Source: Dehalococcoidia bacterium (GTDB taxonomy: Bacteria; Chloroflexota; Dehalococcoidia; Lucifugimonadales; Lucifugimonadaceae). From it: a DNA stretch of 64,000 nucleotides. The notes below the pieces were generated by a model. That model was not told where the DNA came from. It searched no databases and saw nothing but the letters and a program-made list of their open reading frames with translations. The translations under genes were made by a program, and so were the position numbers. Position 1 is the stretch's first letter. Each line of letters opens with the position of its first letter. This document shows, in pieces, positions 54,141 to 64,000 of the stretch. Location of the stretch: the NCBI GenBank assembly GCA_965220275.1, contig CBDCPN010000019.1:89036-153035 (forward strand), in the 5' to 3' direction.

Positions 54141-55193
54141 TCAGACCAGGGTGAGCACGTTGGCGGGATTGTCCACCGTGATTGCCCGGATCTCGTCCTC
54201 GGAAAACCCTTTTCGCCGCATCACGGGGACTATGTTCTCCAGGATGTGGCCGTAGCCGTGTCCGCCGTATTGCACGAGCCGGTGCTTCACGGCGATGTCC
54301 TGCCCGATTACGACCCTGTCCACATAGCCGGCGTCGGCGATGTGCCTGATGAATTCCAGTCTTTGTGCGTCGCTGGGCATGTCGAAATCGGCGAGTGGGT
54401 AGTACGACCCTTCATTTCCGAACAGGTCCCACTCGAGGTAGCAGCCTGATGCTGCGATGCTTCGTAGCAGGTCGAAGTCAAACACAGTCCTGTCCAGGTG
54501 CCCCATGATCACGCGGGATATGTCCGCGCCGCCGTCCGACAGGATTTCCAGTATTTGAGCGGGCGCGTCAGGATGGCGCCCCGGGTGGATCAGTATGGCC
54601 GCGCCGGTCTCCTTCTGCGCGATGGCTGACGCGAGCAGGGACTTTCGTTCGTTGGCCGTCAGCGGCCACGTGCATCCCACCTCGCCGATGATTCCGGCCT
54701 TGACGCCGGTGTCGCCGGCGCCGTCCGTGAAGTCGGCGACAATCTCGTGGGCCAGGTTCTCCACGCTCCGCTCATCCATACCGTCGGGATGGACCACGTC
54801 CACGTAGAAGCCCGCGCCCATCACGATATGCACCCCTGATTCACGGGAAATTCGGGCCAGGGCGTCGGGATTCCGCCCGAAACAGGACGTGGTCGTCTCC
54901 ACGATTCCGCCGCCGCCGGCATCCCGGTAGAACTTGAGTTCGCTGACGGTGGTTTCGGGGTCCATCAGGGTCAAATTAGGGCGGTTGCTGTAGTAGTTGC
55001 GCCTTATCCATCCCAGGTTCTCCAGCGATATCGGGGCATCTTCGAGTTCTGCAGACGGCACGTCCCTGGCAGGCCGAAACATGAACGAGAAGTCGATGTA
55101 GAGGTGCTCGTGGGTCGTTGTTGGGCCGAGCTCCGACGGCGGGATCGGTCCCAGGACGGTCTGTATGAGACCCCGATTTTGTGTTGCTGGCAT
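54141..55193 (-). CDS. Phosphotriesterase-family protein (second PTE/PHP paralogue)
   Basis: TTTHEHLYIDF metal motif and a 350-aa TIM-barrel-sized protein, with later GIIGEVG and ILIHPG motifs. Confidence 0.85.
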   Translation of the reverse strand: MPATQNRGLIQTVLGPIPPSELGPTTTHEHLYIDFSFMFRPARDVPSAELEDAPISLENLGWIRRNYYSNRPNLTLMDPETTVSELKFYRDAGGGGIVETTTSCFGRNPDALARISRESGVHIVMGAGFYVDVVHPDGMDERSVENLAHEIVADFTDGAGDTGVKAGIIGEVGCTWPLTANERKSLLASAIAQKETGAAILIHPGRHPDAPAQILEILSDGGADISRVIMGHLDRTVFDFDLLRSIAASGCYLEWDLFGNEGSYYPLADFDMPSDAQRLEFIRHIADAGYVDRVVIGQDIAVKHRLVQYGGHGYGHILENIVPVMRRKGFSEDEIRAITVDNPANVLTLV

Positions 55194-55369
55194 CGAGCCG
55201 TTCCTCGTAGTAGGGTGGGCCGCAAGCGTAGCACGAAGAATTCAGGCGACAGTCATGGCCTCGACCGTTCGCCGTTCATGTTTAGACGCTGTCCGGAAGG
55301 CCCGAATCTGTATCCGCCGCTTAGGCGTCGCGGAATGCGAACCGACCCGATAAGCAAGAGATCCAAACG

Positions 55370-56503
55370 TTGAAATTCGCTGCATTTACCACGGTCGCAG
55401 CCTCGGCCGGAGAAGCCACCGACGCCGTCGGTCTGCTGGACAACCTCAGGCGTCAAACGGTCCTTGCCGAGGAACTGGGCTTCGAGGCCATGTGGCTTGG
55501 GGAGCACCACTTCGGGCCCTACGGAGCCGGTGACATTCCGAACCCGATCCTGCTCGGGGCGGACCTGGCGGCCCGGACATCCCGGATTCGCATCGGGCAG
55601 ATGGCGAACATCGCTCCGTGGTGGCATCCGATACGGCTTGCCGAGGATCTGGCGATCCTGGACAACATGACCGGGGGTCGCGTGGACGTCGGCTTCGGCA
55701 GAGGGGTCTGGCCTTATGAGGGGCCGCAGTTCCATGCGAATGCGGACCCGCGAAAGGACAAGGAGAACCGGGAACTGTTCCGGGAGACGGTGGAGATCGT
55801 GCGGGAGATATGGACCAACGAGTACTTTTCGTACCGCGGGACCAACTACACCTTCCCGGCGGACGACACCGTTTTTTCGCATCCCCTGTACCCGTCGAAT
55901 CCCGCATGGCAGGACGGGGACCGGGTGACGAAGCTGCGCGTTACTCCCAGGCCGTTCCAGAAGCCACACCCTCCGATGTGGATGACCGTCTCCACAGACC
56001 GTTCCGTGACGACCGCGGCTGAAATGGGACTGAAGGCGTGCTACTGGCAGCCCCCGGCCCTCAGGATCAGGCGCCGCATGGAACTCTACGCACGGGTCAG
56101 GACCGAATTGGAGGGAAGGCCGTTCGCCGTGGGGGAAGAACAGGCGGTCATGCGCTCGACGTACGTCTCGTCTTCGATGGAACAGGCGCGGCGCGAGGCG
56201 GAAGAGGCCATCATGTCTGCCTTCATCTTCAACGACCCATTCCGCGGCAGACAGGTCTTCACCAACCCTGACGAGGCATTGGCCCCCGACGTCAAGCTGG
56301 ACTGGGATTTCCTGGAGCCGCGCACGCTGTTGGTGGGTTCCCCGGAGAACGTGGTTGAGAAGGTCCAGGAGTTGCAGGAGGTCTGCAACCTCAACTACCT
56401 GTTAGTCGATTTCTCGCACATGGGCCTGTCGTTGAGCCAGTCGCTGACGAACCTTGAGACCTTTGCAACTAAGGTAATGCCAAGATTTGCAGGCGATGGC
56501 TGA
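55370..56503 (+). CDS. Luciferase-like (LLM class) flavin/F420-dependent monooxygenase/oxidoreductase
   Basis: MKFAAF...AEELGFEAMWLGEHHF is a typical LLM N-terminus. 377 aa with a TTG start. Confidence 0.85.
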   Translation: MKFAAFTTVAASAGEATDAVGLLDNLRRQTVLAEELGFEAMWLGEHHFGPYGAGDIPNPILLGADLAARTSRIRIGQMANIAPWWHPIRLAEDLAILDNMTGGRVDVGFGRGVWPYEGPQFHANADPRKDKENRELFRETVEIVREIWTNEYFSYRGTNYTFPADDTVFSHPLYPSNPAWQDGDRVTKLRVTPRPFQKPHPPMWMTVSTDRSVTTAAEMGLKACYWQPPALRIRRRMELYARVRTELEGRPFAVGEEQAVMRSTYVSSSMEQARREAEEAIMSAFIFNDPFRGRQVFTNPDEALAPDVKLDWDFLEPRTLLVGSPENVVEKVQELQEVCNLNYLLVDFSHMGLSLSQSLTNLETFATKVMPRFAGDG

Positions 56504-56602
56504 AGTAGGGAGGGCGCGTTCACGGGCCTTGCACGATCTCTCGCGATAGAGTTCATTGGCGTCTCCACTATCCACAGTCAGCGCCATGTCCAAGGAACCG
56601 AA

Positions 56603-57355
56603 GTGACTGATCAAACCAGCCTGAAAGACGAACTTAAGGCCCAGTGGGAGGCGATGGCGGAGGACTGGATAAAACAGGCCCAGGATTCCGAGTCGTCGCA
56701 CCGCGAAGCCATGCTTGATGGATGGATGCTCGATGCCGTGGGGAACGTGTCTGGCCGAAAGGTGATCGACCTCGGATGCGGCGAGGGTCGGTTCAGCCGG
56801 ATGCTCGCCGAGAGAGGCGCGGTGGTGACCGGTGTGGACCTATGCCGGCCATTCATCGAGTTCGCCAGGGAGCATCGCGTCTCCGACGAGTCCTACCTGA
56901 TCGGAGACATGGAGGACCTCCACGGGGTGTCCAGCGGCGAGTTCGATCTCGCTGTCTCATACGTGACCCTCGTCGACGTACCTGACATGGACAGCGCTGT
57001 GCGAGAGGCCTTTCGGGTCCTGCGCCGCGGCGGGCGATTCGTCGTCTGCAATCTTCACCCGATGGTATCGGCGAGTCCCGGCTGGATCAGGCAGGGAAAC
57101 CGGCAGATGCACTATCCGGTCGATCGCTACTTCGACGAGGGAGAGCGTGATATCTCGCGACGGGAAGACATGCCTTGGACCAACTTCCACCGGACGTTGT
57201 CAACGCAGTTTCACACGTTTCTTGGCGCTGGCTTCACGGTCGAAGACATACGGGAGCCCACGCCGACTGCCGAGCAAGCCGCGCGGTACCCGATCGTCAG
57301 CGATAACCTCCGGGTACCGGAGTTCATCATCTTCATCCTTCGCAAACCCGAATAA
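56603..57355 (+). CDS. Class I SAM-dependent methyltransferase
   Basis: VIDLGCGEGRFS motif I, followed by GGRFVVCNLHP. Confidence 0.85.
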   Translation: MTDQTSLKDELKAQWEAMAEDWIKQAQDSESSHREAMLDGWMLDAVGNVSGRKVIDLGCGEGRFSRMLAERGAVVTGVDLCRPFIEFAREHRVSDESYLIGDMEDLHGVSSGEFDLAVSYVTLVDVPDMDSAVREAFRVLRRGGRFVVCNLHPMVSASPGWIRQGNRQMHYPVDRYFDEGERDISRREDMPWTNFHRTLSTQFHTFLGAGFTVEDIREPTPTAEQAARYPIVSDNLRVPEFIIFILRKPE

Positions 57356-57385
57356 CCTCCAAGTGTCTGAAATGAGGAGACTTTG

Positions 57386-58138
57386 ATGCCAATCGACGGC
57401 GAATTGTCCGGCAAAGTTGCCCTAATCACCGGCGCGAGCAGGGGAATCGGCAAGGCCATTGCCGTCGGCTACGCTGCCGCAGGCGCGAGCGTTTGCTGCG
57501 TTGCCAGGACTGAGTCCGTTCTGGCTCGCACGGCGGCCGAAATTCAACGAACCGGCGGCTCTGCGGTAGCCGTCCCAGCCGACGTCATGGACTACGATTC
57601 AGTCGTCCGCGCGTTCGAAGTTGCCGCCCGCGAGTTAGGCGGAGTCGACATCGTCGTCATCAACGCCGGGGGCAATTCTGACGATAGCGATGACATTGAA
57701 AGCGGCAGTCCGGACCAGTGGATAGGCACCATCGAGTTGAACCTGTCAGGCGCCTACTATACGGCGAAGGCGGCGATACCCCATCTGAAACAGCGAGGAG
57801 CCGGGAAGATCATCACGGTCGGATCAGGCCTTGGCCGTCGCGGCAGGCCGGGCATGTCGGCATACGCGTCGTCGAAGGCCGGACTCTCCATGCTCACACG
57901 TGTACTCGCGCTGGAACTGTGGCAGCACAAGATCAGCGTCAACGAGCTGATTCCGGGCCCTGTCCTCACTGATCTCGTCGCCCAATCGTATGCCCAGGAC
58001 CCCAGGTCCGTCTTCCAGGACGACAGCGAGTGGGTCAAGACCCCCGAAGACGTCGTACCCCTCGCCCTGTACATGGCCACCCAGCCGGTAAAAGGCCCCA
58101 CCGGCCAGACCTTCAGCCTGATGCGGCGGGATATGTGA
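57386..58138 (+). CDS. SDR-family oxidoreductase. Its last 52 codons are duplicated 1.7 kb downstream.
   Basis: TGASRGIGKAIA, NAGG and YASSK motifs. GAGGAG lies 6 nt upstream of the ATG at 57386. Confidence 0.88.
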   Translation: MPIDGELSGKVALITGASRGIGKAIAVGYAAAGASVCCVARTESVLARTAAEIQRTGGSAVAVPADVMDYDSVVRAFEVAARELGGVDIVVINAGGNSDDSDDIESGSPDQWIGTIELNLSGAYYTAKAAIPHLKQRGAGKIITVGSGLGRRGRPGMSAYASSKAGLSMLTRVLALELWQHKISVNELIPGPVLTDLVAQSYAQDPRSVFQDDSEWVKTPEDVVPLALYMATQPVKGPTGQTFSLMRRDM

Positions 58139-58140
58139 GG
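57980..58140 (+). repeat. Direct repeat copy 1 (3' end of the SDR gene, including the stop codon and 2 more nt)
   Basis: 161 bp, about 90% identical to 59658-59818 by manual alignment (16 differences). Confidence 0.9.
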
Positions 58141-58335
58141 GGGGATCGCTGATAGGAACACGACAATTCGGCTGCATCGTCCCAAGACGGCCAGCCCACG
58201 TCGTCCTGCCCGTGATACCCCGGCCTGGGGCAAGTGTCTGCATACCGGCACGGGTTGCCTGTAGGAAGCGCTTCAAGCGGCATCGCCCCCCAGTCAGGCC
58301 CTGATGGACTCGCGTATTTAGTGCCCTTAATGCAG

Positions 58336-58364
58336 TTGACTAAATTTAGCTCTGGGAGTAAATT
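58336..58364 (+). promoter_or_regulatory. Sigma-70-like promoter candidate, TTGACT-17 nt-TAAATT, upstream of the ATPase gene
   Basis: Read from the sequence in an AT-rich stretch about 35 nt upstream of the ATG at 58398. A GAGG is present 11 nt before the ATG. Confidence 0.4.
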
Positions 58365-58397
58365 TACATTATTGAATAAGCAGAGGTAAATATCGAC

Positions 58398-59600
58398 ATG
58401 GCCGACTTTTCAAACCCCTTTCGTCCAGGCGCCGGCCACAGGCCGCCCTATCTGGCTGGGCGGGGGGCGGAACGCGAAGAATTCGTCCGGCTGCTCCAGC
58501 AAAGTACGATTCTGGAAAACATGGTGCTAACCGGGCTTCGAGGAGTAGGTAAGACGGTGCTCCTCGACTCATTCAAGCCCTTGGCCACACAACACGGGTG
58601 GCTGTGGGTCGGGACCGACCTTTCGGAATCTACAAGCATCAGCGAGGACAGTTTGGCAATTCGACTCTTCACGGATCTGTCGCCTGTCACATCGGACGTG
58701 GTCGTGGCTACCGAGGAGGTACGCCACATCGGATTCGCTTCCGGCTCAGAGCGCGTCCAACACAGGCTCAGCTACGAGGCCCTCATAGATGCCTACGACC
58801 GCATACCGGGCCTATCGCTGGACAAGGTCAAAGGGGTACTGGAATCCGCATGGAGCGGTCTGTCGAAGTCGGGGCACATACGCGGCGTCATATTCGCGTA
58901 CGACGAGGCGCAAAATCTCACAGATCAGGCGGCCAAAGAGCATTATCCGCTGTCCATGCTGCTCGACTGTTTCCAGTCTCTGCAAAGACAGGGTCTCCCC
59001 TTGATGCTCGTCTTGACCGGTCTTCCGACGTTGTTCCCCAAGCTCGTTGAGGCGAGGACCTACTCGGAGCGAATGTTCAGGGTTGTTTTTCTACAAAGCC
59101 TTGACCGACAGGAAAGTGAAGAGGCAATTCGCAAGCCTGTTCAAGACACTGCGTGTCCGGTACGCCTAAGCGACAGTTCAGTCGAAACGATCATCGCAAT
59201 GTCGGGAGGCTATCCATACTTCATACAGTTCATATGCAGGGAGGTTTATGACGTTTTCATTCAAAGAATCGACAAGGGTGAACGTGCGTCAGTTCCCGCC
59301 GCGGAGATCGAACAGAAACTAGACACCGATTTCTTTTCCGGGCGATGGGCGCGCGCAACCGACCGCCAAAGGGAGTTGATGATAGTGATTTCCCGCCTCG
59401 ACAGTAGCGACAGTGAGTTCACGGTCCAGGAAGTGGTCCAGGAATCCAGGCGAGTGCTGGACAAACCGTTCGGCAGCAGCCATGTCAGTCAAATGCTCGC
59501 GGCGCTCGCGTCACAGGGACTGGTGTACAAGAATCGACATGGCAAATACTCATTCGCAGTGCCGCTGCTGGGTCGATTCATAAGACGGCAGGCACAGTGA
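58398..59600 (+). CDS. AAA+/ORC-like P-loop ATPase with a C-terminal winged-helix-like domain (function unknown)
   Basis: NPFRPGAGHRPPYLAGRGAEREEF, then Walker A GLRGVGKT and Walker B-like VIFAYDEAQ. The C-terminal region (TDRQRELMIVISRL...LASQGLVYKNRHGKYSF) looks like a wHTH. G+C is lower than in the neighbouring genes by eye. Confidence 0.7.
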   Translation: MADFSNPFRPGAGHRPPYLAGRGAEREEFVRLLQQSTILENMVLTGLRGVGKTVLLDSFKPLATQHGWLWVGTDLSESTSISEDSLAIRLFTDLSPVTSDVVVATEEVRHIGFASGSERVQHRLSYEALIDAYDRIPGLSLDKVKGVLESAWSGLSKSGHIRGVIFAYDEAQNLTDQAAKEHYPLSMLLDCFQSLQRQGLPLMLVLTGLPTLFPKLVEARTYSERMFRVVFLQSLDRQESEEAIRKPVQDTACPVRLSDSSVETIIAMSGGYPYFIQFICREVYDVFIQRIDKGERASVPAAEIEQKLDTDFFSGRWARATDRQRELMIVISRLDSSDSEFTVQEVVQESRRVLDKPFGSSHVSQMLAALASQGLVYKNRHGKYSFAVPLLGRFIRRQAQ

Positions 59601-59657
59601 CTATCGAATCTTCGTGAGCCCCCGTACCTGTCTGCTTCGGTCCGCTTTAAACCACTC

Positions 59658-59818
59658 GCTCAGTCGTACGCCCAGGACCCCAGGTCCGTCTTTCAGGACG
59701 ACAGCGAGTGGGTCAAGACCCCTGAAGACTTCGTACCCCTCGCTCTGTATATGGCCACTCAGCCCGAGAAGGGCCCTACCGGCCAGACCTTCAGCCTGAT
59801 GAGACGGGATATGTGAGG
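59658..59818 (+). pseudogene. Detached 3' fragment (52 codons plus stop) of an SDR gene; direct repeat copy 2
   Basis: Translates in frame to AQSYAQDPRSVFQDDSEWVKTPEDFVPLALYMATQPEKGPTGQTFSLMRRDM*. It differs from the intact gene's C-terminus at 2 residues only, and no start codon or N-terminal part precedes it. Confidence 0.85.
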
Positions 59819-59840
59819 TGGATTCCAACCAGGACGGGCC

Positions 59841-60656
59841 TTACATCGGCGCCTGGCCGATTACCGCGTAGATTCGGTGAGGTACCTGCAGTATGTCGCC
59901 GGGGAATCGGTCAGCCAGCATGGTCGCGTGGGCGCGGTCGAACTTCTCCACCTCATCAGGAGTGAGAGACGCCCCTATGCCGGCGCTTGCCCGGATGCGG
60001 CCCCTCCAGGCGACTGTCGTATAGGGGATCTGGAGGTCGTACTCGAAGCTATTGACCTCCACGAATCCTCCCTGATTGACCTCGTCGATCCACACTGGGT
60101 GTCGTCCGGCGCCTCCGTAGAGTGTCCAACGTGGATTGGCGCTTCGTATGAGTTCCTCGGTTGCCTCTGGAACGCTGCCCGGCAATGGAAGCCAGTCCAG
60201 CGACGCAATTACGAGGTGTCCTCCCGGCGTCAGGACTCGCAAGGCCTCTTTGATGGCCGACGTCGAGTCGAACCACCACCAGCACTGCCCGGCGATCACC
60301 AGGTCAACGGACTGCGAAGGCAACCCGGTGGATTCGGCCGTTGTGTTTACGTAGTCCACGTAAACACCAGCTGCTTTGTCTAAATTCTGGGCCTCCCGCG
60401 TAATTGCTTCAGAGGGGTCGATTCCGATTACCTTGCTTGCGCCTCGGATCGCGAGTTCCCGGGCCACAGTCCCGGTACCCGTGCCAAAATCAACTGCCCG
60501 TGCGCCTTGGATGGCAACACCGTGTCGCTCCAGTTTGGTGAAGAAACTGTCTGGGAAGCCCGCCCGATACTGCGCGTAGTCGGCAGCCGTCTTGCCGAAG
60601 TCGACTCCTTCCATCTGACGGGCTCGCGGAGTGGGGTCGTAGTTACTAAGGTCCAT
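59841..60656 (-). CDS. Class I SAM-dependent methyltransferase
   Basis: AVDFGTGTGTVAREL motif I, followed by GGHLVIASLDW. Confidence 0.85.
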   Translation of the reverse strand: MDLSNYDPTPRARQMEGVDFGKTAADYAQYRAGFPDSFFTKLERHGVAIQGARAVDFGTGTGTVARELAIRGASKVIGIDPSEAITREAQNLDKAAGVYVDYVNTTAESTGLPSQSVDLVIAGQCWWWFDSTSAIKEALRVLTPGGHLVIASLDWLPLPGSVPEATEELIRSANPRWTLYGGAGRHPVWIDEVNQGGFVEVNSFEYDLQIPYTTVAWRGRIRASAGIGASLTPDEVEKFDRAHATMLADRFPGDILQVPHRIYAVIGQAPM

Positions 60657-60763
60657 CCGGCTTACTCGCAGCCGTGTATCGTCTAGGTTCGTTCACCAAC
60701 TATGTTCGCGTCCGGCAAGGCAAACGCAACCAGGAATTCGAATTCGGTTCTCATCATGCTCCC

Positions 60764-61504
60764 ATGCTAGACCCTTTCGACTTCCTGTTTACGGCCCTTG
60801 TGCTAGGCGTTGCTGCGTTCATCATCGGCGCCATCGGGTTCGGCTTCGGCCTGACGACCACGCCGTTTCTGCTTCTCTACCTCGACCCCCAGACTGTCGT
60901 GATCGTGGTCAACGCAGTCGCGATCCTGGCATTCGGCCTCATGCTGTTCGAGACCCGACGGGAGGTGCGCTATCGGGAACTAACGCCCGTGGCGGTCGCC
61001 GGCGTTCTGGGCGTGCCGGTCGGGGTTTACGCCCTCAGCGAGCTGGACCCGCACGCGCTTCGTATCGGCATCGCGGCGCTCGTACTGGCGCTCACGGTCC
61101 TCGTAATCGTCAATAGAAACTGGCGGGTCCCGAAGCCACGGGTCACCGGCCCCGTGACCGGTTTCTGCGCCTCAGCCCTCGTCGCCGGCCTTGCGATCGG
61201 TGGCCCTCTACTCGTCCTCTACCTGCTTGGGCGCGGGATGGGGCGGCAGGGCGTGCGGGCGTCGATGTCGTTCCTCTTCGTCATCATGTACAGCACCGCC
61301 CTTGCGGGCTACGCAATCCAGGGCCTGGTAACCACCGACCGCCTGCTCCTCACGGCCGCAGCCATTCCCGCGGTCGCCGCCGGTTACTGGCTTTCGGTTC
61401 GCCTCACGGGAAGAATGAACGCCACCGTCTTTCGACGGGTCGTAGTCACCGTCATCGCAGGGACGAGCATTCTCGTCCTGGCGCGGGAAGTGCTGGCGCT
61501 GTAG
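60764..61504 (+). CDS. TauE/SafE (TSUP, DUF81) family anion exporter/permease
   Basis: 246-aa polytopic membrane protein with the GFGFG..TTPFLL motif typical of the TSUP family. I chose the start at the ATG at 60764. Confidence 0.8.
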   Translation: MLDPFDFLFTALVLGVAAFIIGAIGFGFGLTTTPFLLLYLDPQTVVIVVNAVAILAFGLMLFETRREVRYRELTPVAVAGVLGVPVGVYALSELDPHALRIGIAALVLALTVLVIVNRNWRVPKPRVTGPVTGFCASALVAGLAIGGPLLVLYLLGRGMGRQGVRASMSFLFVIMYSTALAGYAIQGLVTTDRLLLTAAAIPAVAAGYWLSVRLTGRMNATVFRRVVVTVIAGTSILVLAREVLAL

Positions 61505-61566
61505 CCGAGCCGATCTGCCGTCAACAGACCGCCATCATGCTATCGTTCGGCGCGGGAGGCATACTC

Positions 61567-62439
61567 ATGACCAAGCTGGAGTTCGTCGACACACACATCC
61601 ACCTGTACGACATGCAGCACCCGGAGTTGCAGTACGGCCACTGGCACCCGACCGAGCCGCATCCGGTCATGGGGTGGCAGATTCGGAAACTCGCCGAGAA
61701 CAACTACGTCGCCGAGGACTACATCGCCGAGACCCGCGACGCCAACGTCACCAAGGCGGTCCACGTGCAGGCCGCCTTCGGCAACCCCGACCCGGTGACG
61801 GAGACCGAGTGGTTGCAGGAAGCGGCCGACCGTACAGGGTTCCCGCACGGAATCGTGGCGCACGCCGACCTGCGCGACCCCGGCGTTGAAGCCGTACTCG
61901 AACGCCACTGCGAGGATCCCAACATGCGCGGCATCCGCGACTTCTCATACGGCGACTACCTGGTCGAGCCGGACTACCACCGCGGCTTCGCCCTACTCGA
62001 AAAGTTCAACCTGGTGTCCAGCATGCCCGCCGAGTGGCAACACATGGAGGACCTGCGGAACCTGGCGAACAAGTTCCCGAACATCCTCATCGTCGTCGAT
62101 CACACCGCCTTTCCGACGGAGCGCACGGACGAGTACTTCGAGAACTGGAAGAAGGGCATCGCCATCGCGGCCACATGCGACAACATCCGCTGGAAGATTT
62201 CCGGCCTCGGCATGGCCGACCACACCTGGACGATCGACAGCATCAGGCCCTACGTGCTCACGTCCATCGAAACGATGGGCATAGACCGTTGCTTCTTCGC
62301 CACCAACTGGCCGGTCGACAAGATTTTCAGCACCTACGACGAACTCATAGACGCCTACACGGAACTAATCTCGGGCTTCAGCCAGGACGAACAGACCGCC
62401 CTATTCTCCAAAACGGCCGAGGAGATTTACCGCATCTGA
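61567..62439 (+). CDS. Amidohydrolase-2-family metal-dependent hydrolase/decarboxylase
   Basis: FVDTHIHLYD HxH motif at the N-terminus, a later VVDH motif, and FFATNWPVD near the C-terminus. Confidence 0.8.
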   Translation: MTKLEFVDTHIHLYDMQHPELQYGHWHPTEPHPVMGWQIRKLAENNYVAEDYIAETRDANVTKAVHVQAAFGNPDPVTETEWLQEAADRTGFPHGIVAHADLRDPGVEAVLERHCEDPNMRGIRDFSYGDYLVEPDYHRGFALLEKFNLVSSMPAEWQHMEDLRNLANKFPNILIVVDHTAFPTERTDEYFENWKKGIAIAATCDNIRWKISGLGMADHTWTIDSIRPYVLTSIETMGIDRCFFATNWPVDKIFSTYDELIDAYTELISGFSQDEQTALFSKTAEEIYRI

Positions 62440-62458: not shown

Positions 62459-63145
62459 TTACTGCGTGCCGTCGTAAGGGCGCCTCGCGGCTCTTGCAAT
62501 AACGACAAGTGCGACGACGGTCGTCGCGGCAATGCAAATGCTACGGATGTCGGACGAGTGAGCGGTGATCTGAGAATCGGCCCGCTCCTGCGGCTCAACC
62601 GAAGTGAATTCATGAGACTTGCCTGGCACTGCAGCAATTGTGGGCCTGTATCCGGCAACCAATTGGTACGTCGAACGGAAAGCCTTGTACAAGATGAATA
62701 GGGACATCACCAGGCCGCTCCACGCCAGAGGCTCCCACCACCATCGGCCGTCGGGAAGTTCACCAATTGAAGATGCCCAACTTACGGTGAATCCGAACCA
62801 TACGAAAAACCACAGGAGTGGCGAAAGAATTGGGAAAGTTTGTAGAGGCCACGTACTAAGCATCGGAACAATGGAACTGAGAACGAGCATAAACGCTAGT
62901 ACAAATAGTGCACCGGCAATCACCATGACTACGATATCTGGGATGGCTGGAATCGGCACAATAAGAAAATTGGAATTTTGCCTTTCGTCCTCTGGCAGTT
63001 GCAGAGCCCGTGCCAGCAAGAAAACACCTCCAAGTGCGACCACAGCACTGCTAGCGAGCCAATCTTCTCTTAATACTGAATTTTCTTTTGACTCCAATTT
63101 CCCAAGATCCCTCACTGTGTCGGGTTTGTCAACATTCTCACCCAT
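62459..63145 (-). CDS. Hypothetical integral membrane protein (no recognisable family)
   Basis: 228-aa ORF with 4-5 hydrophobic segments and clearly lower G+C than its neighbours. No motif was recognised. Its coding status rests on ORF length and hydrophobicity periodicity only. Confidence 0.5.
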   Translation of the reverse strand: MGENVDKPDTVRDLGKLESKENSVLREDWLASSAVVALGGVFLLARALQLPEDERQNSNFLIVPIPAIPDIVVMVIAGALFVLAFMLVLSSIVPMLSTWPLQTFPILSPLLWFFVWFGFTVSWASSIGELPDGRWWWEPLAWSGLVMSLFILYKAFRSTYQLVAGYRPTIAAVPGKSHEFTSVEPQERADSQITAHSSDIRSICIAATTVVALVVIARAARRPYDGTQ

Positions 63146-63188: not shown

Positions 63189-64000
63189 CTAGTAGTCCCG
63201 CAACGCCCCGTCGCTGGTGATGATCGGGTGCCGGTAATTTATTTGCGGCGGGTGGTGCTTCAGCGCCTCTTCGTTTAACTCGATGCCGATGCCCGGGGTG
63301 TCCGGCACTACCAGGTGCCCGTCCTCGAGCTTCAGTGGTTCTTTGACCAGGTCGCGTTTGGGCGCCTCGTACTCGGTACCCGTGTACTCCTGTATCGCCA
63401 CGTTGTGGATCGCGGCGTCCAGTTGCACGCACGAAGCCGTCATCACCGGTGAACACGGGTTGTGCGGGACCATGCCCACGTAGCTCGCCTCCGCAAGCGC
63501 GGCGATCTTCTTCAGGTTCGTGAAGCCGCCCGCAACGCTGATGTCCGGCCGCACGTACGCCGACCCGTTTTTGTTCAGCAGGTCTCGGAACTGGTAGATC
63601 GTGTACAGCCGCTCGCCGGAGGCCACCGGTATCGGGATGTTGTTGGCGACGTGGGCCATGGCGTCGATGTTGTCCGGCTCAATCGGGTCCTCGAAGAAGA
63701 ACAGCCCGTACGGCTCCAGCGCCCTGCCCGCCCCTATCGCCTCGGCCGGCGTCAACCGGTTCACGACGTCGATCATCAGGTCCAGTTCCGGCCCGACCGC
63801 GTTTCGAACGGCCTCGGTGTACGCCACCATCTTCCGGATGACTCCCTGGAACGAATTCGGCAGCCCCCGCTCAAACGGGTCGAGCGGATAGAACCGCAAC
63901 GCCGTGTACCCCTCTTCGGCCAGCCGCACCGCATTGTCGGCCATCTCCTCCGGCGAATCGCCAACCACGTGAACGTAAACGCGCACGCGCTCCCGCGTCG
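63189..64000 (-). CDS. Enolase-superfamily sugar-acid dehydratase-like protein (galactonate dehydratase family), N-terminus outside the window
   Basis: RERVRVYVHV...PEEMADNAVRLAEEGYTALRF, FFEDP, ASGERLYT, and the C-terminal DGHLVVPDTPGIGIELNEEAL. The reading frame stays open to the window edge. Confidence 0.85.
   Translation of the reverse strand, partial: TRERVRVYVHVVGDSPEEMADNAVRLAEEGYTALRFYPLDPFERGLPNSFQGVIRKMVAYTEAVRNAVGPELDLMIDVVNRLTPAEAIGAGRALEPYGLFFFEDPIEPDNIDAMAHVANNIPIPVASGERLYTIYQFRDLLNKNGSAYVRPDISVAGGFTNLKKIAALAEASYVGMVPHNPCSPVMTASCVQLDAAIHNVAIQEYTGTEYEAPKRDLVKEPLKLEDGHLVVPDTPGIGIELNEEALKHHPPQINYRHPIITSDGALRDY

What the first reader, a model, noticed from the sequence alone, without database searches (positions are those of the whole stretch)
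57980..59818. AAA+ ATPase cassette bracketed by a 161-bp duplication of an SDR gene's 3' end, with differences that are almost all synonymous
The last 52 codons, the stop and 2 further nt of the SDR gene (57980-58140) recur at 59658-59818. Between the copies lies a 1.5-kb segment of lower G+C. It carries its own sigma-70-like promoter (TTGACT-17-TAAATT) and one gene, a 400-aa ORC/AAA+-like ATPase with a wHTH tail.

The two copies differ at 16 of 161 nt. Only 2 of 52 codons change the amino acid (V to F and V to E). The other changed codons are all synonymous, including a CGG/AGA arginine pair. So the copies diverged while each was under coding selection. The downstream fragment is therefore not a recent local duplication. 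It is the 3' end of a different allele or orthologue.

That pattern is expected when an integrative element targets the 3' end of a gene and brings a replacement end with it (attL/attR-like), or when a cassette is swapped in by homologous recombination. No integrase is present. Solitary ATPases of this type are common in defence or mobile islands, but I cannot assign a function.
Basis: seen in the sequence. Interest (0 to 1): 0.62.

Follow-up and report, generated by a model that had tools for sequence, protein, structure and literature searches.

The report
Recombination scar beside a roving ATPase gene
A self-contained, self-regulated ATPase gene of unknown function sits in an insertion hotspot behind a dehydrogenase gene, and the duplicated gene end next to it is most likely a scar of recombination between related strains, not the attachment sites of an integrating element.

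Summary
57980-58140 recurs at 59658-59818 with 16/161 differences (14 synonymous and 2 non-synonymous changes; dN/dS 0.03). Contigs from three runs of one sample span both junctions.

The attL/attR reading is not supported:
- Four related genomes carry the same ATPase cassette at the same place behind the SDR gene.
- Two of them have no SDR fragment. One has a shorter, decayed 87-bp fragment joined at different points. A fifth genome keeps only a relic of the cassette.
- There is no integrase, and the cassette has no fixed ends.
- The SDR-TauE gap is a hotspot holding different accessory genes in different relatives, and the SDR gene is a recombination mosaic.

The fragment was part of a working SDR allele of a close lineage until recently. 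It most likely became a fragment, or was refreshed, through homologous recombination between hotspot variants. That recombination was either one-sided, with an illegitimate join, or two-sided using an older fragment as an arm.

The ATPase has an Orc1/Cdc6-like, PF01637-type AAA+ fold with a winged helix. Relatives at 60-79% identity occur across many phyla and in prophages. It always carries its own promoter with two TAAATTTA boxes 18 bp apart. Its function is unknown.

The parts
57383..58138 (+). SDR (short-chain dehydrogenase) gene, intact. It is a recombination mosaic when compared with relatives.
   Evidence: Pfam adh_short, E 2e-54. Identity to relatives switches between 0.63 and 1.00 in 60-nt bins, and the best-matching lineage changes from bin to bin.
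57980..58140 (+). Repeat copy A: the last 52 codons, the stop and 2 nt of the working SDR gene.
   Evidence: It is closest to L005 (11 differences) and L001 (16).
58141..58335 (+). Cassette leader, shared with the ATPase-bearing relatives L094, L095 and L096 and with the relic in L004.
   Evidence: MAFFT alignment. L004 aligns up to window position 58418.
58336..58366 (+). Promoter with a putative operator. The -35 is TTGACT (58336-58341). TAAATTTA box 1 is at 58341-58348. TAAATTTA box 2 is at 58359-58366 and contains the -10 TAAATT.
   Evidence: These are the only two exact TAAATTTA in the 64-kb window. The same box pair, exactly 18 bp apart, lies upstream of 104 of 153 homologous genes and in 0 of 153 control regions (sequences shown).
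58398..59600 (+). ATPase gene (400 aa): AAA+ with Walker A GLRGVGKT and Walker B FAYDEAQ, a helical lid with GGYPYF, and a C-terminal winged helix.
   Evidence: Pfam AAA_16 37.2 bits, cut-off 32.6. PHROG 6841, E 4e-66. AF2 pLDDT 83.7. Foldseek top hits are 2qen, 2fna and Orc1/Cdc6. The invariant motifs appear in alignment A1.
59601..59657 (+). Right flank of the cassette. It is partly collinear with the flank in L094-L096 and ends at the junction with the SDR fragment.
   Evidence: The junction lies about +56 nt after the stop here and about +41 nt in L096.
59658..59818 (+). Repeat copy B: a promoterless 3' fragment of an SDR allele (52 codons, stop, 2 nt), followed by SDR-type post-stop sequence. 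It is in frame with the ATPase ORF across a single TGA.
59841..60656 (-). Class I SAM methyltransferase (MT2), an accessory hotspot gene that follows the fragment.
   Evidence: Pfam Methyltransf_11, E 3e-19. Present in L004 and L007, absent in L001, L005 and L094-L096. GC3 0.68.
60764..61504 (+). TauE/SafE-family gene, the conserved right border of the hotspot.
   Evidence: Pfam TauE. Syntenic in all relatives.

Best explanation
The gap between the SDR gene and the TauE gene is an insertion and recombination hotspot in a clade of sponge-associated Dehalococcoidia-like bacteria.

An ancestor of part of this clade acquired a single-gene cassette there. The cassette consists of a leader, a promoter with two TAAATTTA boxes, and one Orc1/Cdc6-like AAA+/wHTH ATPase gene. 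It has no recombinase and no defined ends. It is a passively transferred accessory gene that also travels as a self-transcribed cargo gene in prophages.

The 161-bp SDR fragment downstream of it is a recombination scar. A genome variant 'SDR-ATPase' and a variant 'SDR-methyltransferase-TauE' from related lineages were joined. Homologous recombination acted on one side, in SDR or in TauE. On the other side there was either an illegitimate join between the cassette's right flank and codon 199 of an SDR gene, or a crossover within an older fragment. The illegitimate-join route is homology-facilitated illegitimate recombination, or the equivalent single-crossover integration of a circularised fragment.

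Because the fragment belonged to a working SDR gene of a close lineage until that event, it differs from the resident gene end almost only at synonymous sites.

Shown here:
- the repeat and its selection signature;
- the shared insertion site with variable fragments in relatives;
- the hotspot;
- the mosaic SDR gene;
- the absence of an integrase and of fixed cassette ends;
- the conserved operator architecture.

Inferred:
- the recombination route and its direction (which copy is incoming);
- autoregulation of the ATPase through its wHTH;
- any function of the ATPase. My guess is a DNA-binding NTPase switch with an exclusion or defence-type role.
For: (1) dN/dS between the copies is 0.03, P 5e-8. 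The fragment's own branch has 11 changes with 1 non-synonymous, P 3e-4 given the spectrum.

(2) Same site, variable scar. L094 and L095 have SDR-leader-ATPase-TauE with no fragment. L096 has an 87-bp fragment with 5 amino-acid changes, followed by an Exo_endo_phos gene. The window has a 161-bp fragment followed by MT2. The junction positions differ in both partners.

(3) L004 keeps the leader, the boxes and the first codons only, followed by MT2.

(4) Hotspot. L001 has nothing in the gap. L005 and L003 have a different low-GC gene. L007 has another gene.

(5) The SDR gene is mosaic in all lineages.

(6) A and B share a unique AGG codon and several states found only in the window/L001/L005 subclade. 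The exchange was therefore between close lineages.

(7) No integrase within about 4 kb on either side. In three tightly bracketed insertions the cassette boundaries lie 12, 25 or 193 nt before the -35 and 15, 41 or 56 nt after the stop. There are therefore no defined termini.

(8) The same signature occurs in another phylum. In L077 the cassette is bracketed by 135 bp of the lepA 3' end, with 6 synonymous changes, a stop-to-stop change and 0 non-synonymous changes.

(9) The mechanism has precedent. [quoted passage not shown]
Against: - The direction of the event is unresolved. Copy A is nearer to the closest relatives (11-16 differences) than copy B is (19-24). Yet B's post-stop sequence resembles that of the cassette-free relative L005.
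- No donor allele matching B was found.
- Microhomology at the junction is only about 4 nt (CTCG) and cannot be verified without the parental sequences.
- Tight long duplications around this particular cassette recur in unrelated genomes: L024 has 95 bp at 100% identity, L077 has 135 bp, and notes by other agents report further cases. That recurrence may point to a cassette-linked insertion route rather than a generic scar. The perfect repeat in L024 is explained more simply by a one-step insertion with target duplication.
- All close relatives are metagenome assemblies.
Confidence: 0.62

Rival explanations
1. Integrative element with attL/attR, of the e14 or phage 21 icd type. The cassette is a mobilisable element that targets the SDR 3' end by site-specific recombination and brings a replacement gene end. 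The integrase acts in trans or has been lost.
For: The architecture (intact gene, insert, displaced 3' end with synonymous differences) is the one known, from my own knowledge, for prophages that integrate into protein-coding genes. The repeat ends just past the stop codon in the window, in L077 and in L024. L001 has a truly empty gap.
Against: There is no integrase in the window region or in any of roughly 140 other loci as a conserved neighbour. L094 and L095 have the cassette at the same site without any repeat. L096 has a different crossover point. Target genes differ completely between lineages: SDR, lepA, an AAA gene and an oxidoreductase. Cassette ends are not fixed.
Confidence: 0.08
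2. One-step insertion with a long target duplication. The cassette entered once, by a break-repair or template-switch route, and copied about 160 bp of the target on both sides. Later, allelic homologous recombination overwrote one copy with another functional allele. Relatives have since eroded their fragments by deletion.
For: L024 has a perfect 95-bp duplication bracketing only the cassette. The left junction and leader are shared by all four occupants, which fits a single ancestral insertion. L096's shorter, decayed fragment and L004's relic fit progressive erosion. The SDR gene is demonstrably overwritten in blocks by recombination. Other agents' notes describe similar duplications around the same cassette elsewhere (not checked here).
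Against: This route needs a second event to explain why the window's fragment shows no neutral decay although the insertion is old (ATPase 87% nt identity between occupants). Fragments occur only where an extra gene (MT2 or Exo_endo_phos) follows, which suggests that the fragment arrived or was refreshed together with that gene.
Confidence: 0.2
3. The fragment is functional. It is kept under purifying selection because it is translated, for example as a C-terminal extension of the ATPase through read-through of the single in-frame TGA at 59598-59600.
For: The ATPase ORF and copy B are in the same frame, with no other stop between them. The fragment's branch is almost free of non-synonymous change.
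Against: Sharing a frame has a one-in-three prior. The fragments in L096 and L077 are not in frame with the ATPase. L094 and L095 lack the fragment. L096's fragment is decaying. No role is known for an isolated SDR C-terminal peptide.
Confidence: 0.03
4. Assembly artefact: a chimeric join of two strains in a metagenome assembly.
For: The window comes from a metagenome-derived genome with co-occurring relatives, and depth is low.
Against: Independent contigs from three runs span copy A, the ATPase and copy B without differences. The copies are 10% diverged, unlike collapse or expansion artefacts. Analogous structures occur in unrelated assemblies.
Confidence: 0.02

Closest known systems
Homology-facilitated illegitimate recombination (de Vries & Wackernagel 2002; Prudhomme et al. 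2002; Meier & Wackernagel 2003, as cited in PMC5361080) and the 'displaced gene end / orphan module' arrays of T6SS, Rhs and CDI loci
   Same: A conserved gene serves as the homologous anchor. New DNA is added behind it. The former 3' end is pushed downstream and survives as a fragment of a once-functional allele. No dedicated recombinase is involved.
   Different: Here the anchor is an ordinary metabolic SDR gene and the cargo is a single regulatory-type ATPase gene, not a toxin-immunity pair. The route is inferred from comparative anatomy only. Two-sided recombination using an older fragment as an arm gives the same end product.
Prophage e14 / phage 21 integration into icd, where the element carries an alternative 3' end of the target gene (from my own knowledge, not looked up here)
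   Same: The layout is an intact gene, an insert, and then a displaced 3' end of about 160 bp that differs mainly at synonymous sites.
   Different: Those elements encode an integrase and recombine at a fixed core. Here there is no integrase, relatives occupy the same site without a repeat, and the junctions vary.
PF01637-type 'archaeal ATPases' PABY2304 (PDB 2qen) and SSO1545 (2fna), and archaeal Orc1/Cdc6 (2v1u, 2qby)
   Same: The fold order is the same: AAA+ core, helical lid and C-terminal winged helix. Foldseek E-values are 3e-11 to 5e-10, with TM 0.53-0.62 to 2qen and 2fna. The N-terminal P..L.GR..E motif precedes Walker A.
   Different: Sequence identity is 13-18%. The Pfam ATPase_2 score is below its cut-off (16.8 against 33.2). 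The gene is bacterial, solitary and horizontally spread, with its own two-box promoter. No origin or replication role has been shown.
PHROG 6841 (phage protein family of unknown function) and prophage 'morons'
   Same: The match is full length, E 4e-66. In prophage locus L178 the gene sits between the replication/resolvase module and the terminase genes as an independent unit.
   Different: In the window it lies in a chromosomal metabolic neighbourhood with no phage genes nearby.

Membership tests
Site-specific integrative element (attL/attR, tyrosine or serine recombinase) | Encodes, or is consistently linked to, an integrase. | tested here: not met
   No recombinase family among the eight ORFs at 54141-62439. 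No conserved neighbour of the ATPase in 80 loci.
Site-specific integrative element (attL/attR, tyrosine or serine recombinase) | Independent occupants of the same target show the same crossover point and the same repeat. | tested here: not met
   L094 and L095 have no repeat. L096 has 87 bp and the window has 161 bp, with different junctions in both the flank and the SDR gene.
Site-specific integrative element (attL/attR, tyrosine or serine recombinase) | Empty target sites exist in relatives. | tested here: met
   In L001 the SDR stop is followed after about 70 nt by TauE. L004 is not empty; it is a relic.
Transposon / insertion sequence | A transposase, defined termini and a fixed-length target duplication. 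| tested here: not met
   The protein has only AAA+ and wHTH domains. Boundaries lie 12, 25 or 193 nt before the -35 and 15, 41 or 56 nt after the stop. Duplications measure 95, 135 and 161 bp.
Homology-facilitated illegitimate recombination product | Homologous anchor on one side and a non-homologous join on the other. | tested here: inconclusive
   Anchors are available (SDR on the left, TauE on the right). The flank-to-codon-199 junction at about 59650-59658 has only about 4 nt of possible microhomology.
Homology-facilitated illegitimate recombination product | A plausible donor arrangement exists, with the cargo directly behind the same anchor gene and no duplication. | tested here: met
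   L094 and L095 have SDR-leader-ATPase-TauE.
Pfam AAA_16 (PF13191) | Score above the gathering threshold. | tested here: met
   37.2 bits against 32.6.
Pfam ATPase_2 / 'archaeal ATPase' (PF01637) | Score above the gathering threshold. | tested here: not met
   16.8 bits against 33.2. Only the fold is similar, to 2qen and 2fna.
Orc1/Cdc6 replication initiators | AAA+ plus wHTH fold. | tested here: met
   Foldseek hits 2v1u, 2qby and 1fnn, E 1e-8 to 3e-10, but with TM only 0.42-0.48.
Orc1/Cdc6 replication initiators | Binds repeated boxes at an origin and initiates replication. | not testable with these tools
   Two conserved TAAATTTA boxes lie upstream. They overlap the -35 and -10, which fits an operator at least as well as an origin.
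Known anti-phage defence systems (PADLOC-DB 2.0.0) | Match to a defence-protein model. | tested here: not met
   No family matched, even at E up to 1.
PHROG 6841 | Full-length profile match. | tested here: met
   E 3.8e-66, residues 4-399.

The most novel reading that the evidence does not exclude
The promoter-plus-ATPase unit may be a minimal selfish module that spreads with host RecA alone. On this reading it excises as a small circle by recombination between the long direct repeats and carries a captured host-gene end. It then re-enters related genomes by a single crossover in that gene, which would explain the recurrent 95-185-bp gene-end duplications around it in unrelated phyla. The Orc1/Cdc6-like ATPase and its two 18-bp-spaced boxes might stabilise or replicate the circle, or exclude rivals.
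Probability: 0.08. Interest if true: 0.8.

Novelty: new member of a known kind. Interest (0 to 1): 0.38.

Why it matters
For the locus itself, the result is a clean natural example of how accessory genes are shuffled in a chromosomal hotspot without any dedicated recombinase. It also shows that a 'replacement gene end with synonymous differences' does not by itself prove an integrating element. That is a useful caution for island and att-site prediction.

The more interesting object is the cargo. It is an uncharacterised ATPase family that is very conserved (60-79% identity across phyla). It carries a portable promoter-operator, is found in thousands of genomes and some prophages, and matches no described defence or mobility system. 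If this family had an exclusion, defence or replicon function, it would be a one-gene system. That is testable in laboratory strains.

Tried and rejected
I could therefore not count copies of the cassette, or search for integrases, in the window's own genome.
- Exact look-ups of the window's ATPase and SDR proteins found nothing.
- The single metagenome scan, run with the SDR protein, gave no close relatives.
- Sequence searches of the PDB gave nothing significant.
- Rfam gave nothing in 56500-61000, and no terminator-like site was found.
- Literature searches for the ATPase family (PF01637, DUF234, PABY2304, SSO1545; AAA_16 plus defence) gave nothing relevant.
- I tried to decide which repeat copy is foreign from distances to ten alleles. 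The signals conflict because the gene is mosaic.
- I tried to show that L004 retains the flank-fragment junction. Two short matches are individually marginal and lie in the wrong order, so I claim only the leader, the boxes and the first codons.
- I checked whether a C>T mutation bias alone explains the third-position changes. It does not (P 3e-4).
- I looked for a conserved partner gene of the ATPase and found none.
- I looked for conserved sequence downstream of the stop codon and found none.
Full report
OBSERVATION

The repeat finder gives 57978-58143 and 59656-59821 at 90% identity. Over 57980-58140 and 59658-59818, 16 of 161 nt differ. Fourteen codons are changed: 12 synonymously and 2 not (V/F and V/E). 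The CGG/AGA pair is included.

Nei-Gojobori counting gives Sd 14, Nd 2, dS 0.58, dN 0.017 and dN/dS 0.03. The binomial P against neutrality is 5e-8.

The 1517 bp between the copies have G+C 0.559, against about 0.61 on both sides. They contain:
- a sigma-70-like promoter, TTGACT-17-TAAATT, at 58336-58364;
- one 400-aa ORF at 58398-59600.

Logan contigs from three runs of one sample span both junctions with no differences. An assembly artefact is therefore unlikely. No contig shows an ATPase-free form.

NEIGHBOURHOOD AND RELATIVES

The surrounding genes are metabolic:
- phosphotriesterase;
- luciferase-like monooxygenase;
- methyltransferase MT1;
- SDR;
- ATPase;
- SDR fragment;
- methyltransferase MT2, on the reverse strand;
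- TauE;
- amidohydrolase.

The ORF at 63189-63986 was not scanned with Pfam here. Its syntenic counterpart in the relatives carries MR_MLE, that is, enolase-superfamily domains.

The closest genomes are uncultured Dehalococcoidia, about 88-92% identical in nucleotides in the flanks.

The SDR-TauE gap is a hotspot, and relatives differ in what it holds:
- L001 has nothing there.
- L005 and L003 have a different low-GC gene.
- L007 has yet another gene.
- L004 has MT2.

However, it retains about 300 bp of the cassette leader, both TAAATTTA boxes and the remains of the first ATPase codons. It is therefore a deletion relic.

The nearest ATPase homologues (90-91% amino-acid identity) lie on three metagenome contigs of the same clade, L094, L095 and L096. 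In each, the gene sits directly behind the SDR gene and has a homologous leader. ATPase divergence (87% nt) is like that of the flanks (82-90%). The three contigs differ downstream:
- L094 and L095 have no SDR fragment.
- L096 has an 87-bp fragment with five amino-acid changes, followed by an Exo_endo_phos gene.

The join between the cassette flank and the SDR fragment is about 41 nt after the ATPase stop and about 28 codons from the SDR end in L096. In the window it is 56 nt after the stop and 52 codons from the SDR end.

WHAT THE FRAGMENT IS

Polarising the 16 differences with eight other alleles puts 11 changes on the fragment's branch. Seven of them are C>T at third positions, and only one changes the protein. 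Placing the same mutation spectrum at random sites gives one or fewer non-synonymous changes with P = 3e-4. Copy B was therefore part of a working SDR gene for nearly all of its divergence.

Both copies share an AGG arginine codon (58004-58006) that none of the eight other alleles has. They also share several states restricted to the window/L001/L005 subclade. B therefore comes from a close lineage, not from a distant orthologue.

The SDR gene is a recombination mosaic in every lineage. Identity per 60-nt bin ranges from 0.63 to 1.00, and the best-matching genome changes from bin to bin. Because of this I could not decide which copy is incoming:
- Copy A is closer to the nearest relatives (11-16 differences, against 19-24 for B).
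- B's post-stop sequence resembles that of the cassette-free genome L005.

MECHANISM

Four results argue against attL/attR sites:
- There is no integrase nearby and no conserved partner gene.
- Repeat-free occupants exist at the same site.
- The junctions differ between L096 and the window.
- The cassette has no fixed ends.

On the last point, in the three tightly bracketed cases the duplication ends 12, 25 or 193 nt before the -35 and resumes 15, 41 or 56 nt after the stop.

The anatomy fits recombination between hotspot variants, 'SDR-ATPase...' and 'SDR-MT2-TauE'. Homology acted on one side. On the other side there was an illegitimate join, or a crossover within an older fragment. Homology-facilitated illegitimate recombination, the integration of a circularised fragment by one crossover, and two-sided recombination using an old fragment as an arm all give this product. 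The first of these has been proposed for displaced gene ends in T6SS and Rhs arrays (PMC5361080).

Fragments occur in this clade only where an extra gene follows (MT2 or Exo_endo_phos). That fits the view that fragment and extra gene belong to one recombining segment.

An alternative I cannot exclude is a single ancestral insertion that duplicated about 160 bp of the target, followed by allelic overwriting of one copy and erosion of the fragment in relatives.

THE SAME PATTERN ELSEWHERE

Among 79 other loci with this ATPase, two more have the cassette alone bracketed by a duplicated gene end:
- L077 (Planctomycetaceae) has 135 bp of the lepA 3' end, with six synonymous changes, a TGA/TAA stop change and no amino-acid change.
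- L024 (Vicinamibacterales) has 95 bp, 100% identical, of the 3' end of the convergent downstream gene.

L042 has 275 bp of an oxidoreductase 3' end around a 4.4-kb island that also holds an exonuclease and a ParA-like gene.

A second set of 58 loci gave further, heterogeneous flanking repeats, for example a hicB 5' part.

Notes by other agents of this scan describe the same cassette in other genomes. One reports a 150-185-bp duplication of a fic/hsdR junction. I did not check these notes. This recurrence is the main reason to keep a cassette-linked insertion route open.

THE ATPase

The protein matches Pfam AAA_16 just above its threshold. It matches ATPase_2 below threshold, matches nothing in PADLOC, and matches PHROG 6841 at full length.

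An AlphaFold2 model built from 38 homologues (pLDDT 83.7) is most similar to three groups:
- the PF01637-type archaeal ATPases 2qen and 2fna;
- archaeal and eukaryotic Orc1/Cdc6;
- NB-ARC modules.

Walker A, Walker B, a GGYPYF lid motif and an N-terminal NPFRPGAGH..PPYLAGR..E motif are invariant.

Distribution:
- More than 7,900 homologues were scored.
- Relatives at 60-79% identity occur in Acidobacteriota, Binatia, Spirochaetia, Gammaproteobacteria, Planctomycetota, Gemmatimonadota, Nitrospinota, Omnitrophota and others.
- It occurs in about 20 viral contigs. In prophage L178 it lies between the replication/resolvase module and the terminase.
- Distant homologues (about 30% identity) lie on actinobacterial plasmids, in one case next to parA.

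There is no conserved neighbour gene and no conserved downstream sequence.

There is, however, a strikingly conserved upstream architecture. Two TAAATTTA boxes, each with at most one mismatch, lie exactly 18 bp apart and overlap the -35 and -10. This arrangement is found in 104 of 153 loci and in none of 153 control regions. The window's only two exact TAAATTTA are these boxes. I infer autoregulation through the winged helix. The function of the protein remains unknown.

VERDICT

However, the integrative-element model fails its own refutation test.

The locus is a recombination scar in a hotspot, next to a member of a widespread, uncharacterised, self-contained ATPase cassette family. The scar itself is of modest interest. 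The cassette family deserves an experimental look.

Noticed in passing
window 59598-59818: The ATPase ORF and the SDR fragment are in the same reading frame. A single TGA and 19 sense codons separate them, so read-through would give an ATPase fused to the SDR C-terminus. This is probably coincidence: the fragments in L096 and L077 are not in frame.
   Followed up: partly
window 58341-58366, and upstream of the homologues in L014-L189: Two palindrome-like TAAATTTA boxes lie exactly 18 bp apart and overlap the -35 and -10 of the ATPase promoter. They are conserved across phyla in 104 of 153 loci and are absent from control regions.
   Followed up: yes
L004 8754-9116: A relative keeps the cassette leader, both boxes and the first few ATPase codons but has lost the ORF. 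This is a natural deletion relic showing that the cassette can be lost as well as gained.
   Followed up: yes
L005 8790-9700 and L003 8790-9690: A different low-GC gene of about 0.9 kb and unknown function occupies the same SDR-TauE gap in two relatives.
   Followed up: no
L042 6116-11100: A 4.4-kb island is bracketed by a 275-bp duplication of an oxidoreductase 3' end. It holds a DEDD-type exonuclease, the ATPase and a ParA-like ATPase, which gives it a plasmid-like flavour.
   Followed up: partly
L141 4464-8623: At least two, possibly three, copies of the 5' part of a hicB antitoxin gene and its upstream region are scattered around the ATPase and a neighbouring hydrolase gene, next to an intact hicA/hicB pair.
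   Followed up: partly
L051 8001-9182 and 12651-13697; L146 and L149: One Rhodothermales locus has two copies of the ATPase gene within 5 kb. One Thermoleophilia MAG has two copies on different contigs. The gene can therefore be multi-copy.
   Followed up: no
window 62459-63145: A 228-aa membrane-protein ORF has much lower G+C (0.52; GC3 0.53) than its neighbours. It is wedged between the amidohydrolase gene and the enolase-superfamily-like ORF (63189-63986), and tblastn found no match to it in any of the compared relatives. It may be another single-gene insertion.
   Followed up: no
window 57386-58138: The SDR protein is only 76-84% identical to its orthologues, while neighbouring proteins are 94-97% identical. 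Its first 198 codons evolve fast and are mosaic in all lineages, whereas the last 52 codons are conserved.
   Followed up: partly
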